A stretch of 64,000 bases of DNA from an uncultured virus (IMG/VR IMGVR_UViG_3300034071_000245) (Duplodnaviria; Heunggongvirae; Uroviricota; Caudoviricetes), in the IMG/VR virus record IMGVR_UViG_3300034071_000245, one strand, 5' to 3'. The position numbers were made by a program, and so were the translations under genes. The stretch's first letter is position 1, and each line of letters starts with the position of its first letter. Under the pieces are notes generated by a model, which worked only from the letters and a program-made list of their open reading frames with translations, had not been told where the DNA came from and ran no database searches. Positions 47,794-55,612 of the stretch are shown piece by piece.

Positions 47794-48744
47794 TCAGTCA
47801 TCTACTAGATCACGGAACATCTTGAGGTCTTCATCTTCGTCCTCATCCGCAACTGGCGCAGGAGCCTTCTTGGCAACAGGCTTAGACTCGGTAAATGGAG
47901 TTTCTTCCACTTCCTCTTCAAAAGTATCTGCTACCTTACGACGAGCAACAGGGGCCTCACTAACACCACAAACATCATCCAGCTTACGCTTTAGTTCCTC
48001 GTAAGTCTTGAAATGCTTGCGATCAACAATCTCCTTCAACGATGGCTCTGACTTCCAGATGTTCTCTAGCTCGGAGTCATCATCAGATAGAGGAGCAGGT
48101 GCTAGGAATACAGACTCATCATAGTTGGGGAAGCTAACATTGCGTCCACCAATATTGACATTCTGACGAGTCATCTTCAACTTGAAGTTAGCGCCATTCC
48201 AAAGATCAAATGGATTGACCTTCTGTTCGGACTCAAGATCAGGATTCATCATCTTAGTGATCTTATCAAAGATTTTCTTACCAAACTTGAAATAGAAAAT
48301 CTTACCTTCTGCACCCTTGTTCTGTGGGTCATTGATAACCTGAATGACAGAAACATAATGCAGACGGCGCTTCTGATCACGAGCCTGCTTACGCTCTGGT
48401 GCATTCTCATCCTGTGTTGAGTTCCAGAGTTTTGAGTTATACTCAGAAACAGGATCCTTCTCATCAAAGGTCGTTAGTGACTTCTCAATATACCACTTAC
48501 CGGTAGCCTTGTTCTGAAAGCCGTGATCCCAGTAACGAACCCAGGGAAGAGCATCGTCACCATCGACGGCAGGACCGGGAAGGAAACGAATAACAGCAAG
48601 TGCATTGCCTGACTTGTCTGGAGTTGGCTTCCAATAAAGATCGGTTGTGTCGTCTTTTTCGTATGTGGGGTTATTGAGCTTGTCCACTTCCTTGAGGAGA
48701 TTGTCGAAGGACTTGGACTGTTTCTTGAGGTTTGCAAAATTCAT
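47794..48744 (-). CDS. gp32: Single-stranded DNA-binding protein
   Basis: WKP..DKSGN..AVIRFLP; HGFQ...GKWYIE.SLTT; FGKKIFDKI; NPFDLWNGANFKLK; NYD.S.F; acidic tail. Confidence 0.97.
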   Translation of the reverse strand: MNFANLKKQSKSFDNLLKEVDKLNNPTYEKDDTTDLYWKPTPDKSGNALAVIRFLPGPAVDGDDALPWVRYWDHGFQNKATGKWYIEKSLTTFDEKDPVSEYNSKLWNSTQDENAPERKQARDQKRRLHYVSVIQVINDPQNKGAEGKIFYFKFGKKIFDKITKMMNPDLESEQKVNPFDLWNGANFKLKMTRQNVNIGGRNVSFPNYDESVFLAPAPLSDDDSELENIWKSEPSLKEIVDRKHFKTYEELKRKLDDVCGVSEAPVARRKVADTFEEEVEETPFTESKPVAKKAPAPVADEDEDEDLKMFRDLVDD

Positions 48745-50768: not shown

Positions 50769-50993
50769 TTAAAGAGGGAGTTGGGAGGTATCCGATTTCT
50801 TGAGGAAGTGTAGATTTTCGGCTTCTAGTTTGATTTTGGATTTAAGAACACCAGAGACTAACTTAGCGGCTACTTCTACCTCAAAACCGTTTTCGTCGCA
50901 ATACATACAGATTGCATCGATATAAGGTATGTCTTTCATATAGACCATTTCTTCAATGGCCATAGAAAAGCGATTGATATCTTCGGCGTTCAT
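50769..50993 (-). CDS. gp33: Late transcription coactivator; start revised to MNAED
   Basis: FS..IE..V......YIDAI..YC.E...EVE..AKL.S..LK.KI..EA..L.FLK. Confidence 0.9.
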   Translation of the reverse strand: MNAEDINRFSMAIEEMVYMKDIPYIDAICMYCDENGFEVEVAAKLVSGVLKSKIKLEAENLHFLKKSDTSQLPL

Positions 50994-51184
50994 ACAAACA
51001 TACCAAAGATGCCAGAGAGAAGGGAGATTGTGATAGCAGAGGCGATAGTGATTTCGATTACTCCTGTTGCCCAATAACCAAGAATAGAACCTAGAAACAA
51101 ACCAGCGAAGGCACAGATATAGACATTGGTGCTTAGAGCAAAGTTAAACTCACGCATACCAGTGTATTTGTCTTTCTCACTCAT
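50990..51184 (-). CDS. Small two-TM membrane protein
   Basis: Two hydrophobic segments; AAGGA RBS. Confidence 0.6.
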   Translation of the reverse strand: MSEKDKYTGMREFNFALSTNVYICAFAGLFLGSILGYWATGVIEITIASAITISLLSGIFGMFV

Positions 51185-51199
51185 AATATAATCCTTTCA

Positions 51200-51355
51200 T
51201 GAAAGCGGGCCCGTTCTGTTTCGAGGTGGAGCCCATACCCAAAGGATTACGCTGCTAGAGCGAAAGCCTCATATGCATTGTTGTCGTTTGCATTTACGAT
51301 TTGCTTTCGATCTCCTTACGACCTTACTGAATCCTGTCGAACCTGAATCCGGCCC
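51200..51355 (-). ncRNA. ssrA: tmRNA coding piece (permuted two-piece ssrA); tag ANDNNAYEAFALAA* at 51291-51247
   Basis: Starts GGGCCGGATTCAGGTTCGACAGG (tRNA-like 5' arm); resume context GTAAAT-GCA AAC GAC AAC; tag ends ALAA-TAA; 3' ACCTCGAAACAGAAC resembles the alphaproteobacterial motif. 3' boundary approximate. Confidence 0.92.
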
Positions 51356-51356
51356 A

Positions 51357-51791
51357 TCATAAAGAAACATGAGGATTGGTTTTCTTCATTACAGATTTCA
51401 ATCTGCCTCTCCACCATCCTACAGGATGTTCATTCAAAGAAAACTGACCTTCAGCGTAGCCATCATTGAACCAATATCTTTGAGTTCTAATCTTACGACC
51501 ATCAGTTCCCGTAGGATACTTTCTCTCTTTCTTTGAATGGTTTGCCCATCTAAGAGTGTTCGTAAGTTCTGCTCCTTTTTTGGCGCCTTCATTGATTGCG
51601 ATAAAAGAACATTCATCGGAAGTTAGTAATCCCAACAAACCTTTCCAAGCAATCAAATCTTGCCAGTGTCCATGTTCCTCATATAGTTTCTTATGCGCTT
51701 CGGCATGTTCCTCTATAGTGAGTTCAACGATATTTTCTGGTTCATCATTCCCACCCATATGTTTAGGAATGATATGGTGCTTATGTTTCAT
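51357..51791 (-). CDS. HNH homing endonuclease (Mob-like) inside the tmRNA intervening segment
   Basis: HKHHIIPKHMGG.D...N.VELT.EEH.EAH..L motif; C-terminal W.NDG..E......P.GW.RGR putative DNA-binding motif. Confidence 0.88.
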   Translation of the reverse strand: MKHKHHIIPKHMGGNDEPENIVELTIEEHAEAHKKLYEEHGHWQDLIAWKGLLGLLTSDECSFIAINEGAKKGAELTNTLRWANHSKKERKYPTGTDGRKIRTQRYWFNDGYAEGQFSLNEHPVGWWRGRLKSVMKKTNPHVSL

Positions 51792-51801
51792 AATAATCTC
51801 C

Positions 51802-51829
51802 TGTCGATATTACTATTTATAAATCGACA
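51802..51829 (-). promoter_or_regulatory. Late promoter TATAAATA (51814-51821) in the loop of a hairpin abutting the HNH RBS
   Basis: Minus strand TGTCGAT-ttataaatagtaat-ATCGACA-GGAG-attatt-ATG. Confidence 0.75.
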
Positions 51830-51847
51830 AGTTTTCACATTTCCTTA

Positions 51848-51915
51848 TGGTGGACCGGGTGGGAACTGCCCCCACGTCCAAGAAGCCTATATTCCGTCTC
51901 TCAACGATCTAAGCA
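51848..51915 (-). ncRNA. ssrA: tmRNA acceptor piece (T-arm, acceptor 3' strand and encoded CCA)
   Basis: GACGTGGGGGCAGTTCCCACCCGGTCCACCA; CCGGTCC pairs with GGGCCGG at 51355 giving G3:U70; discriminator A; non-canonical GGCAGTT T-loop. 5' boundary approximate. Confidence 0.9.
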
Positions 51916-51918
51916 TAT

Positions 51919-51949
51919 TATTTATAACATACGGTGAGTTTTTTGTCAA
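51919..51949 (-). promoter_or_regulatory. Composite promoter for tmRNA: TTGACA-17-(TGn)TATAAA overlapping late box TATAAATA
   Basis: -35 at 51944-51949; -10 / late box at 51919-51926. Confidence 0.8.
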
Positions 51950-51951
51950 GA

Positions 51952-52266
51952 CTAAAGTGGTGCAAAAGTTTTATTATGTCCGTCTATTGATAGAGTTATG
52001 GAACGGACATAGCCACACTCTTTGGTTCCAGGAATGGAGAACTCACCGCTACCATGCCTGTGAAATGAAGGAGCATTACACTCACCACCATTAATACTAG
52101 CCAACGAAACATCAATCACCTTCTTCGCTTTACAGTGGATGATATGACTATCACTAACTTTCTTTTCACATGAAACATCTTCTGACGCCAATGCTGGTGT
52201 GTTACTCAGTATCAAGAGTATTTTCAAAATCCTCAATGAGAGGGACCGGGGGTTCTTTAGTTGCAT
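51952..52266 (-). CDS. Putative exported Cys-containing protein (true start likely downstream)
   Basis: Signal-like ILLILSNTPALA then four Cys. Confidence 0.5.
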   Translation of the reverse strand: MQLKNPRSLSLRILKILLILSNTPALASEDVSCEKKVSDSHIIHCKAKKVIDVSLASINGGECNAPSFHRHGSGEFSIPGTKECGYVRSITLSIDGHNKTFAPL

Positions 52267-54472: not shown

Positions 54473-54522
54473 TGTAGAAACTCCTGGTGTAATTTACTTC
54501 TATTTATATAACATGTAAACTA

Positions 54523-55239
54523 TCATAGTCCCATTTCAGTTTTTTGAATGATATATTCTTTAACTGTACCAGAACGAACAATGTCTTCAATACCAAATTC
54601 GATATGGTCGAATGATGACATACGGCGAGTTATTGCCATCAGTTCTCTAATACCAGTCTTGTCATGTGGTTTGTGTAGATCACTCTGACGGTAATCACCA
54701 CAAAAGACGATACGAGAGTTGGTACCTATACGGGTCATAACAGTATCGATTTCTTGGAAGTTCATGTTGTTACATTCGTCAACGATGATAATGGAATCAT
54801 TGAAGGTCGTACCACGGAGGAACGATGTAGTGGTGAACTCGACCATTCTTTTCATCTTTAGTATCTTCCAACCATCACCACGACCAAATAGATCGTCACA
54901 AATTTCCTGATAGGGTTGTTCGTAAACTTCCGCTTTCTGTTTTTCCGAACCGGGCAAGAAGCCCATGTCTCTTGATGGAACTACCGAACGGATGATAACG
55001 ACCCTCTTATATGTCTCCTCGATTAGCACCTCCCTTAGTGCAAGATATGATGATAGAAAAGTTTTACCGGTGCCGGCATAACCATGTAGCATGAGATTTG
55101 AACCGGCTTCGTAGGCGTCCCATACTCTCTGTTGATTGACAGTGAGTGGCTTAATGTGACGAAGTTCGAAGTGGTTTCTCTCAGCCTGATTTTGAGGCTG
55201 ATGCTGTTGTTGGTTATTTCTTTTCGACTTTCTTGACAT
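54523..55239 (-). CDS. phoH: PhoH-family ATPase; start revised to MSRKSK
   Basis: KPLT.NQ; GYAGTGKTFL; RS.V..R.MGFLPG; FLRG.TF..S.IIVDE.NN; TRIG..SR..FCGD..QSDL; DIVRSG. Confidence 0.95.
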   Translation of the reverse strand: MSRKSKRNNQQQHQPQNQAERNHFELRHIKPLTVNQQRVWDAYEAGSNLMLHGYAGTGKTFLSSYLALREVLIEETYKRVVIIRSVVPSRDMGFLPGSEKQKAEVYEQPYQEICDDLFGRGDGWKILKMKRMVEFTTTSFLRGTTFNDSIIIVDECNNMNFQEIDTVMTRIGTNSRIVFCGDYRQSDLHKPHDKTGIRELMAITRRMSSFDHIEFGIEDIVRSGTVKEYIIQKTEMGL

Positions 55240-55277
55240 ATATTTTACCTTATTGTTATCGTTATTCACATCTCCAT

Positions 55278-55317
55278 AAACAAAAGAGGTCGATGCCTTT
55301 TTACGGGCACGACCTCT
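55278..55317 (-). terminator. Terminator-like hairpin upstream of phoH
   Basis: AGAGGTCG-TGCC-cgtaaaaa-GGCA-t-CGACCTCT followed by TTTGTTT. Confidence 0.6.
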
Positions 55318-55348
55318 AAACTTTTTACTGTGATGTTCTGTTGTCAGG

Positions 55349-55612
55349 TTAAATCTCCTTGGGAATGTCCCAACGCTTGCTTGCAACGGCAGATGCCTCT
55401 GGCACAGCGGACTTGATTCGACCGAGAACATACTTTTGAAAATCTGCTGGCGGCTTTGTGATACCGACATTCACCGGATCAACCATTGTAAAGTTGCGTA
55501 GCACTTGACGAAGTTGGGGATTATTCTTTTCAAACTCATCACGCTCGGCAATGGTCATTGTGTTGGTGAACTCCTCACCAGTCTCTTTATTTTCCCATGT
55601 GTAATTAGGCAT
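55349..55612 (-). CDS. FmdB-like small protein lacking Cys, paralog 1
   Basis: MPNYTWENKETGEEF...MTIAERDEF.K.NP. Confidence 0.7.
   Translation of the reverse strand: MPNYTWENKETGEEFTNTMTIAERDEFEKNNPQLRQVLRNFTMVDPVNVGITKPPADFQKYVLGRIKSAVPEASAVASKRWDIPKEI

What the first reader, a model, noticed from the sequence alone, without database searches (positions are those of the whole stretch)
51200..51949. Phage two-piece (permuted) tmRNA with an HNH homing endonuclease gene filling its intervening segment
Seen, minus-strand order: promoter, acceptor piece ending CCGGTCC-A-CCA (51848), 492-nt spacer, then coding piece starting GGGCCGG (51355) with tag ANDNNAYEAFALAA*. The two ends form a 7-bp acceptor stem with the AlaRS G3:U70 determinant. 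The spacer holds a 144-aa HNH ORF whose TGA is separated from the mature 5' G by a single nucleotide. Established: alphaproteobacterial ssrA is permuted, and its usually short intervening segment is removed by RNase P plus 3' trimming. Inference: the endonuclease occupies a segment discarded by tRNA-type processing, so it is phenotypically silent like an intron but needs no splicing. I do not know of this arrangement being described.
Basis: partly seen in the sequence, partly recalled or inferred. Interest (0 to 1): 0.95.

Follow-up and report, generated by a model that had tools for sequence, protein, structure and literature searches.

The report
Homing endonuclease nested inside phage two-piece tmRNA
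A lake-water T4-like phage carries a split (two-piece) tmRNA gene whose discarded spacer holds a mobile HNH nuclease gene, and related nucleases sit in or beside tmRNA genes of many other phages, which looks like a previously undescribed hiding place for selfish DNA.

Summary
Rfam finds a permuted tmRNA on the minus strand (tmRNA_permuted 62.5 bits, cut-off 47; alpha_tmRNA 51.4, cut-off 50). The match spans an unaligned insert that is the 144-aa HNH ORF. No intron model matches.

The case is not isolated. Five further distinct HNH/tmRNA lineages from viral contigs carry a homologous HNH gene in the same place. In all six it lies in the loop of an 8-13 bp closing stem formed by the two ends of the intervening segment.

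tmRNA genes lie within 1.5 kb of 25 of 78 loci encoding HNH relatives. Alleles without the HNH have spacers of 70-126 nt and near-identical tmRNA sequence. They occur in the same lake samples as the HNH allele.

Four of the six lineages have a hairpin that covers the ribosome-binding site and carries TATAAATA in its loop. This is the known T4 control device for homing endonuclease genes.

ARAGORN misses all six HNH-bearing genes.

RNA processing and nuclease activity are untested. I rate it a new variant of a known kind.

The parts
51919..51949 (-). Promoter-like region of the tmRNA gene: TTGACA (51949-51944), 17-nt spacer, TATAAATA (51926-51919). The second element serves as a sigma-70 -10 (TATAAA) and matches the T4 late-promoter consensus.
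   Evidence: Read. TATAAATA located. Both elements are kept in L016, L038 and others although the spacer differs. Not listed by the consensus scanner. Function is inferred.
51848..51912 (-). Acceptor piece of the two-piece tmRNA. It contains the T-arm (51875-51859), the acceptor 3' strand CCGGTCC (51858-51852), the discriminator A (51851) and CCA (51850-51848). The 5' end is approximate.
   Evidence: Rfam alignment and fold. The T-arm 22-mer is identical in 30 viral contigs.
51356..51847 (-). Intervening segment (492 nt), presumed to be discarded during maturation.
   Evidence: Lies between the two Rfam-aligned halves. HNH-less relatives have 70-126 nt here.
51835..51847 (-). 5' strand of the closing stem (UAAGGAAAUGUGA). 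It holds an SD-like AAGGA and a start-stop mini-frame, ATG 51840-51838 then TGA 51837-51835.
   Evidence: 13 pairs with 51372-51360, probabilities 0.89-1.0. A stem of 8-13 bp is present in all 18 distinct alleles parsed, with different sequences.
51800..51831 (-). Hairpin in front of the HNH gene. TATAAATA (51821-51814) lies in its loop. Its 3' arm pairs the first AGG of the Shine-Dalgarno AGGAG (51802-51798).
   Evidence: Folds. The same design, with unrelated stems, occurs in L044, L048 and L050 and in L072 and L090. T4 precedent read in passages of PMC2988022.
51357..51791 (-). HNH endonuclease gene, 144 aa, ATG 51791, TGA 51359-51357. Its last four sense codons form the 3' strand of the closing stem (51372-51360, with one further base from the codon before).
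   Evidence: ORF. PHROG 655 'homing endonuclease' E 7.2e-13. Pfam HNH 18 bits, below the 21.4 cut-off. 580 homologs, most of the listed ones 133-160 aa. Invariant N20, H29, H33. AlphaFold pLDDT 89.8. Single copy in the genome.
51356..51359 (-). Leader TGAT just before the mature 5' G. The endonuclease uses its TGA as stop codon.
   Evidence: Eighteen distinct alleles were parsed. Twelve end the intervening segment in a 4-nt TGAT trailer, four in TTGAT, one in GTTGAT and one in GATGAT.
51204..51355 (-). Coding piece of the tmRNA. It contains the acceptor 5' strand GGGCCGG (51355-51349) and the tag frame 51291-51250 (ANDNNAYEAFALAA) with stop 51249-51247. The 3' end is approximate.
   Evidence: Rfam alignments. 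Between 97 and 100% identical to the HNH-less alleles L016, L005 and L009. ARAGORN reads the same tag in L016 and L005.
50769..51074 (-). Downstream neighbour: gp33-like late-transcription coactivator. The true start is probably an internal ATG.
   Evidence: PHROG 254, E 5.9e-19. The same tmRNA-then-coactivator order is reported for phage Melnitz (PMC9004378, passages).

Best explanation
This is a working-looking permuted (alpha-type, two-piece) tmRNA gene of a T4-like freshwater phage. Its intervening segment has been colonised by a mobile HNH homing endonuclease gene.

The two ends of the intervening segment pair into a closing stem. This stem stacks under the 7-bp acceptor stem, and the endonuclease gene occupies only its loop. 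The tRNA-like domain can therefore still fold. RNase P cutting before G51355, plus 3' trimming back to CCA at 51848, would release the two tmRNA pieces and discard the passenger without any splicing.

Translation of the endonuclease is probably blocked on the early precursor by a hairpin that pairs part of the ribosome-binding site. It is probably allowed on late transcripts that start from the TATAAATA in the hairpin loop, as described for T4 I-TevI and segB.

The endonuclease family targets tmRNA genes. Homing carries both halves of the tRNA-like domain along with it, because in a permuted gene they flank the insertion.

Shown: the anatomy, its recurrence, presence/absence polymorphism, covariation and mosaicism. 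Inferred: RNA processing, timing of expression, nuclease activity and target.
For: 1. tmRNA identity. Rfam scores are above the cut-offs. The tag ends in ALAA. G3:U70 and ACCA are present.

2. Acceptor stem covariation across lineages. The pairs are CCGGTCC/GGGCCGG, CGCCTCC/GGGGGCG, CACCTCC/GGGGGTG, CCGGTAC/GTGCCGG, CTGCTCC/GGGGCAG and CAGCTTC/GGGGCTG.

3. No decay after insertion. The window's tmRNA segments are 97-100% identical to those of HNH-less alleles. All five other HNH-bearing genes keep tags ending in LAA.

4. Recurrence. The HNH lies inside the intervening segment in 11 further loci. These represent 5 more distinct lineages, at 45-61% protein identity.

5. The closing stem is present in 18 of 18 distinct alleles, with or without the HNH. 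In the window it is predicted with probability 0.89-1.0.

6. Association with tmRNA genes. 25 of 78 HNH-relative loci have a permuted tmRNA within 1.5 kb. On the quick tree, placement is clustered more tightly than in any of 200 shuffles.

7. Polymorphism. 26 of 30 contigs sharing the T-arm have ORF-free spacers. In one lake run, contigs diverge from the window exactly at 51846/51847 into the spacers of the L005 and L011 types. Contigs in three runs bridge the HNH junctions with no differences.

8. Mosaicism. Against L038, the flanks and the mRNA-like domain are 83-100% identical, but the tRNA-like halves next to the HNH are only 69-74% identical. The window, L009, L016 and L005 show all four combinations of two variant blocks.

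9. A hairpin with TATAAATA in its loop and part of the SD in its arm occurs in 4 of 6 lineages, built from unrelated stem sequences. T4 precedent: PMC2988022, passages.

10. No intron model matches.
Against: - There are no RNA data. The only RNA run with any match holds short, diverged pieces. The mature ends, two-piece processing and timing of expression are therefore unshown.
- Nuclease activity and target site are unknown. Pfam HNH is below its cut-off. Foldseek matches only the 35-40-residue core, with non-significant E-values.
- The nearest HNH-less allele (L016) is not a clean empty site. Its spacer interior is unrelated, and only TAAG and TTATGAT are shared at the borders.
- TATAAATA is not enriched in this genome (12 found against 10.6 expected) or in the window (4 against 4.4). 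Use of the late promoter rests on conservation in the hairpin loops alone.
- Two lineages (L038, L043) lack the hairpin.
- The L044-L046 and L048 tmRNA matches are below Rfam's cut-off (42.7 and 46 bits). For these I relied on my own parsing.
- The tree is the quick version. The careful search did not finish.
Confidence: 0.78

Rival explanations
1. The HNH gene is no longer selfish. It has been kept because it helps the phage, for example by cutting the tmRNA genes of competing phages or of the host. Its position in the spacer would then reflect co-regulation with the tmRNA rather than homing.
For: The family stays next to tmRNA genes in three different placements and over deep divergence (45-61% identity). 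Catalytic residues are invariant in 65 sequences. The allele is found in lake runs dated 2016 to 2024.
Against: Most related alleles lack the gene (26 of 30; 0 of 48 in an unselected sample). This is the patchy pattern of a selfish element. Marker exclusion by a homing endonuclease gives the same picture, so the two readings overlap.
Confidence: 0.12
2. The insertion has killed the tmRNA gene. The two halves are relics and only the HNH gene is active.
For: The Rfam score drops from about 95 bits in HNH-less alleles to 62.5 and 51.4. ARAGORN fails. No RNA evidence exists.
Against: The score loss comes from the insert, not from mismatches. The tmRNA segments are 97-100% identical to those of HNH-less alleles. 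Acceptor stems keep pairing through compensatory changes, and tags stay open and end in LAA, in all six HNH-bearing lineages. The closing stem is kept.
Confidence: 0.06
3. The spacer is a self-splicing intron, or another ribozyme, that carries the HNH gene.
For: tmRNA genes are known to host group I introns with homing endonuclease genes in the T-loop (PMC11915505, passages). The HNH motif resembles that of group II intron maturases (E 2.4e-05).
Against: No intron family matches 51100-52050 at E<=10. The ORF and its leader fill almost the whole spacer. The permuted gene order needs no ligation. HNH-less alleles have the same boundaries with short hairpins.
Confidence: 0.02

Closest known systems
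Phage T4 segB, a free-standing GIY-YIG homing endonuclease gene between tRNA-Arg and tRNA-Ile (PMC2988022, passages)
   Same: An endonuclease gene in a phage lies in a spacer that tRNA-type processing removes. It targets the RNA-gene region and is preceded by a hairpin with a late promoter that controls translation.
   Different: segB lies between separate genes and belongs to another nuclease family. Here the gene lies inside one RNA gene, between two halves that must pair with each other, nested in the loop of a conserved stem.
Group I introns with LAGLIDADG endonuclease genes in the T-loop of tmRNA genes (PMC11915505, passages)
   Same: A homing endonuclease gene interrupts a tmRNA gene within the tRNA-like domain and is removed at the RNA level.
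   Different: Those need a ribozyme and exon ligation. Here no intron model matches, and removal would use the cell's RNase P and 3' trimming.
Two-piece tmRNA of marine T4-like phages: Melnitz, pelagimyophages (PMC9004378, passages)
   Same: Permuted, alpha-type tmRNA gene just upstream of the gp33-like coactivator in a T4-like aquatic phage.
   Different: That paper's text mentions no ORF in the intervening segment. The words HNH, homing and intervening have 0 occurrences. It used ARAGORN, which misses the HNH-bearing form. The window gave no glutamine riboswitch match.
Permuted tmRNA genes with other cargo in the intervening sequence: a tRNA-Ala gene, a repetitive element (PMC11915505, passages)
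   Same: Shows that the intervening sequence tolerates large passengers.
   Different: No protein-coding or mobile endonuclease cargo is reported there.
Aeromonas phage Aeh1 mobE, which splits nrdA into two genes (reference title seen; Aeh1 mobE mentioned)
   Same: An HNH endonuclease gene sits between two halves of a gene whose products reassemble.
   Different: In that case the endonuclease created the split, and reassembly is between proteins. Here the gene was already permuted, and reassembly is by RNA pairing.

Membership tests
Permuted (two-piece) tmRNA | Covariance-model score at or above the curated cut-off | tested here: met
   RF04321 62.5 against 47; RF01849 51.4 against 50.
Permuted (two-piece) tmRNA | Gene order of acceptor piece then coding piece, with a 7-bp acceptor stem, G3:U70, discriminator A and encoded CCA | tested here: met
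   Sequence read. Fold probabilities 0.98-1.0. Compensatory variants in relatives.
Permuted (two-piece) tmRNA | Tag reading frame with an alanine resume codon, ending in a hydrophobic ALAA-type tail and a stop | tested here: met
   ANDNNAYEAFALAA* at 51291-51247. ARAGORN reads the same tag in the HNH-less alleles.
Permuted (two-piece) tmRNA | Precursor cut into two mature RNAs; alanylation and SmpB-dependent tagging | not testable with these tools
   No RNA run holds the locus. The phage encodes no SmpB, so host SmpB would be needed.
HNH homing endonuclease | HNH (beta-beta-alpha-metal) catalytic motif | tested here: met
   PHROG 655, E 7.2e-13. N20, H29 and H33 invariant, H5 and H6 nearly so, in 65 sequences. 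PDB profile match to a maturase HNH, E 2.4e-05. The core superposes on pyocin and Cas8-HNH nucleases at 0.9-2.6 A over 35-40 columns. Pfam HNH is below its cut-off, 18 against 21.4.
HNH homing endonuclease | Presence/absence polymorphism at one site among close alleles | tested here: met
   2 of 30 T-arm-sharing contigs have the gene and 26 have ORF-free spacers. Both forms occur in one sample.
HNH homing endonuclease | Site-specific cleavage of the gene-less allele and preferential inheritance | not testable with these tools
   The only indirect signs are the mosaic tRNA-like domain and the four-combination pattern.
Group I or group II intron | Match to an intron covariance model | tested here: not met
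   No intron family at E<=10 in 51100-52050.
T4-type translational control of endonuclease genes (RBS hairpin with internal late promoter) | Hairpin that pairs the Shine-Dalgarno sequence, with TATAAATA inside it | tested here: met
   Present in the window, L044, L048 and L050 and in L072 and L090. In the window only the first three of the five AGGAG bases are paired.
T4-type translational control of endonuclease genes (RBS hairpin with internal late promoter) | The phage uses TATAAATA late promoters | tested here: inconclusive
   A gp33-like coactivator is present. The motif is not enriched: 12 against 10.6 in the genome and 4 against 4.4 in the window. I did not look for gp55.

The most novel reading that the evidence does not exclude
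The passenger is policed by its own host gene.

In two lineages (L048, L050) the HNH frame runs past the RNase P site and stops 27 or 15 nt inside the mature tmRNA. In the other four, the stop codon is followed by a single base. RNase P processing would therefore leave the endonuclease message with no stop codon, or with a stop codon at its very 3' end. Such a message is the natural substrate of tmRNA.

Any endonuclease made from a processed precursor would then be tagged and degraded by the tmRNA in which it is nested. Only late, unprocessed transcripts would yield stable enzyme.

Together with co-conversion of both acceptor strands, this would make the permuted tmRNA gene a self-contained mobile module with built-in dosage control.
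Probability: 0.15. Interest if true: 0.85.

Novelty: new variant of a known kind. Interest (0 to 1): 0.78.

Why it matters
- It adds a third way for a homing endonuclease gene to live harmlessly inside an essential-type gene, beside self-splicing introns and inteins. The element uses a segment that the cell's own tRNA-processing enzymes already throw away.
- In a permuted RNA gene the two strands of the acceptor stem flank the insertion. Homing would therefore move a matched pair together. This would explain the cassette-like exchange of the tRNA-like domain seen between related phages.
- There is a practical blind spot. ARAGORN, the usual tmRNA finder, missed all six HNH-bearing genes. Surveys of phage tmRNA therefore undercount them.
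- The system offers a small natural test bed for how RNase P handles a 500-nt structured spacer, and for links between trans-translation and selfish DNA.

Tried and rejected
- ARAGORN on the window found nothing.
- RNA evidence. One RNA run (marine metatranscriptome, X21) held 5% of the sampled words. When laid, it gave only short pieces with 1-10 differences each, probably from relatives. It says nothing about expression or RNA ends.
- Depth figures from contigs were not used to estimate allele frequency.
- GenBank phage collection. blastn found 8 records and tblastn 11 (all Synechococcus phages). None covered 80% of the query. The S-SKS1 homolog has no tmRNA within 2.5 kb.
- Cellular genomes. 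14 loci, none full length. 0 of 14 have a tmRNA nearby, and the 8 weakest are group II intron maturases.
- Foldseek against the PDB gave no match at E<=0.001.
- Genome-wide enrichment of TATAAATA was not found.
- The careful tree search did not finish, so the quick tree is reported.
- Earlier scan notes: none exist for this genome.
My script parsed 48 as permuted and left 32 unparsed, so the rate of 0 of 48 is rough.
- I did not delete the spacer in silico. Natural HNH-less alleles served as that control.

Full report
**What is there**

The window is the minus strand of a 174.5-kb virus record rated complete. It is T4-like:
- gp32 at 47794-48744;
- a PhoH-like gene at 54523-55470;
- a gp33-like late coactivator at 50769-51074.

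On the minus strand, Rfam finds a permuted tmRNA. tmRNA_permuted scores 62.5 bits (cut-off 47) over 51909-51247. alpha_tmRNA scores 51.4 bits (cut-off 50) over 51953-51204. Both span a long unaligned insert.

Reading the sequence confirms every coordinate of the finding:
- CCA ends at 51848.
- The intervening segment is 492 nt, 51847-51356.
- The mature 5' end reads GGGCCGG from 51355.
- The tag is ANDNNAYEAFALAA.
- A 144-aa ORF occupies 51791-51357. Its TGA is one base away from the 5' G.

ARAGORN reports nothing. No intron family matches the region at E<=10.

**The tmRNA looks intact**

A scan of viral contigs with the 22-base T-arm found 30 loci. They break down as follows:
- Two are identical to the window.
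- 26 have intervening segments of 70-126 nt without an ORF.
- One is cut by a contig end.
- One has a different acceptor end that my script did not parse.

The HNH-less alleles score 76.8-110.1 bits in Rfam across the 11 scanned (L016, the nearest, 95). For the two tested (L016, L005), ARAGORN calls a permuted tmRNA with the same tag. The window's lower score is therefore the cost of the insert.

Outside the insert, the window is 97-100% identical to these alleles in both tRNA-like halves and in the mRNA-like domain.

The acceptor stem covaries: CCGGTCC pairs with GGGCCGG, and CGCCTCC pairs with GGGGGCG. An outer helix also shows an A-U to G-C exchange between allele types.

An unconstrained fold of the 709-nt putative precursor forms the acceptor stem across the insert (probabilities 0.98-1.0) and the T-arm.

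The phage has no SmpB gene.

**The intervening segment is a hairpin with a variable loop**

In all 18 distinct alleles that I could parse, the first and last bases of the segment pair into a stem of 8-13 bp. A 4-6-nt trailer ending in GAT follows, just before the mature G. The interior is unrelated between alleles.

In the window the stem has 13 pairs (51847-51835 with 51372-51360, probabilities 0.89-1.0). Its 3' strand encodes the last four sense codons of the ORF. The ORF's stop is the TGA of the conserved TGAT leader, which HNH-less alleles also have.

The endonuclease gene therefore fills the loop and leaves the stem intact. This is comparable to the way such genes sit in peripheral loops of group I introns (comparison from general knowledge).

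**The protein**

- PHROG 655 'homing endonuclease' matches residues 2-50, E 7.2e-13.
- Pfam HNH is below its cut-off, 18 against 21.4 bits.
- 580 homologs were found; most of the 120 listed are 133-160 aa, and many align over the full length.
- In an alignment of 65 sequences, N20, H29 and H33 are invariant, and H5 and H6 nearly so.
- The AlphaFold model is confident, pLDDT 89.8.
- Foldseek matches only the 35-40-residue nuclease core of pyocins and Cas8-HNH, at non-significant E-values.
- A PDB profile search hits the HNH domain of a group II intron maturase, E 2.4e-05.
- The genome has a single copy.

**The arrangement recurs**

I fetched 80 viral loci encoding relatives of the protein. Two are the window's own type. 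I scanned the other 78 with Rfam. A tmRNA lay within 1.5 kb in 12 of 20, 12 of 20, 1 of 20 and 0 of 18, giving 25 of 78.

In 11 of these loci the gene lies inside the intervening segment:
- L038-L042;
- L043;
- L044-L046;
- L048;
- L050.

These are five distinct proteins, 45-61% identical to the window's. For L044-L046 and L048 the Rfam scores are below the cut-off (42.7 and 46 bits). For those I rely on my own parsing of the T-arm, acceptor stem and tag.

All six lineages keep a pairing acceptor stem with G3:U70. The variants include CACCTCC/GGGGGTG, CCGGTAC/GTGCCGG, CTGCTCC/GGGGCAG and CAGCTTC/GGGGCTG. All keep tags ending in LAA.

In four lineages the ORF ends ...TTATGA-T-G. In L048 and L050 it reads through the mature 5' end and stops 27 and 15 nt inside the tmRNA.

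In the other 14 associated loci the gene lies beside the tmRNA gene:
- upstream on the same strand (L047, L072, L090, L110);
- divergent from its promoter (L049, L052-L055, L059, L061);
- about 850 nt away (L062, L064, L070).

On a quick tree the window groups with L038, L043 and L044 (support 97). L048 and L050 group with L072 (support 92). The divergent placements form another clade (support 98). Placement labels are clustered more tightly than in any of 200 shuffles. The careful search did not finish.

An unselected sample of tmRNA-type T-arm sites gave 48 permuted genes with segments of 4-223 nt and no HNH inside. The state is therefore rare. In one genome for each of about 185,000 prokaryote species, I found no full-length relative and no tmRNA association.

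**Signs of mobility**

Alleles with and without the gene share near-identical tmRNA sequence.

In one lake run, contigs leave the window's sequence exactly at 51846/51847 and continue into the spacers of the L005 and L011 types. In three runs, contigs cross both junctions of the HNH gene without a difference.

Against L038 the sequence is mosaic:
- the upstream flank is 83% identical;
- the start of the acceptor piece is 97% identical;
- the mRNA-like domain is 95% identical;
- the two tRNA-like halves next to the gene are only 69% and 74% identical.

The window, L009, L016 and L005 show all four combinations of the outer-helix variant and the acceptor-stem variant. This requires recombination.

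I read these patterns as co-conversion around a homing site. That is an inference. The nearest HNH-less allele is not a clean empty site, and neither the cut site nor the activity is known.

**Likely control of expression**

Just before the ORF, 51831-51800 folds into a hairpin. Its loop holds TATAAATA (51821-51814). Its 3' arm pairs the first three bases of the AGGAG at 51802-51798.

L044, L048 and L050 have the same design built from unrelated stem sequences, as do L072 and L090.

A review of T4 mobile elements describes this device for I-TevI, I-TevII, I-TevIII, segB and Aeh1 mobE. Early transcripts hide the ribosome-binding site. Late transcripts start inside the hairpin and are translated (PMC2988022, passages).

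There are caveats. TATAAATA is not enriched in this genome or in the window. L038 and L043 lack the hairpin. In those two the ORF starts 10-11 nt after CCA, and in L038 the SD-like AAGGA lies in the closing stem.

**Comparison with what is known**

- Two-piece tmRNA genes in aquatic T4-like phages, upstream of the coactivator gene, are published (PMC9004378, passages).
- The 2025 tmRNA database paper reports endonuclease genes only inside group I introns of tmRNA. For intervening sequences of permuted genes it reports a tRNA-Ala gene and a repetitive element (PMC11915505, passages).
- T4 segB, between two tRNA genes, is the nearest functional precedent.
- Six full-text searches found no report of an endonuclease gene in a tmRNA intervening segment. 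Subscription journals are largely outside that library.

**Verdict**

It is a new variant of known kinds: a free-standing homing endonuclease and a permuted tmRNA. It is strengthened by recurrence in six lineages and by a family-wide tie to tmRNA genes. Processing, activity and target remain to be shown.

Noticed in passing
L090:1300-2340: Upstream of this HNH gene lies a promoter followed by a truncated acceptor piece that breaks off in the T-loop (GGACGGGGGTTCGATTC...). Downstream lies a complete, different permuted tmRNA whose TTGAC-17-TATAAT promoter is embedded in the 3' coding end of the HNH gene. It looks like a replacement event and hints at a break near the T-arm.
   Followed up: partly
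L010, intervening segment (98 nt): The spacer of this HNH-less allele holds two T-arm-like hairpins (GGTGGTTCGATTCCACC and GAGGTTCGATTCCTC). This suggests tRNA-derived cargo.
   Followed up: no
window 51835-51847 (-): The first bases of the spacer read TAAGGAAATGTGA: an SD-like AAGGA, then ATG directly followed by TGA. In L038 the same TAAGGAAA leads straight into the HNH start codon. The window's start-stop may therefore be a relic of that arrangement.
   Followed up: partly
window 51203-51296: The 3' part of the coding piece is 83% identical over about 91-94 nt to an unannotated stretch of Sinorhizobium phage Phosso, a 469-kb genome. That phage may carry a related alpha-type tmRNA.
   Followed up: no
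window, whole: No glutamine riboswitch or other regulatory RNA reached Rfam's cut-off in the window. This differs from the tmRNA of phage Melnitz described in PMC9004378.
   Followed up: no
window 54501-54508 (-): One of only four TATAAATA sites in the window lies 29 nt upstream of the start of a 190-aa ORF (54472-53900). It is a candidate late promoter.
   Followed up: no
window 50990-51184 (-) and 51952-52266 (-): The ORFs flanking the tmRNA gene (64 aa, hydrophobic; 104 aa) match no Pfam or PHROG family. The upstream flank is shared with L038 (83%) but not with L016.
   Followed up: no
L049, L052, L054, L055, L059, L061: In the divergent placement, a hairpin precedes the HNH start. Its loop contains TTGTCAAG, which on the other strand reads CTTGACAA, apparently the -35 element of the tmRNA promoter. 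The two genes would then share one control region.
   Followed up: partly
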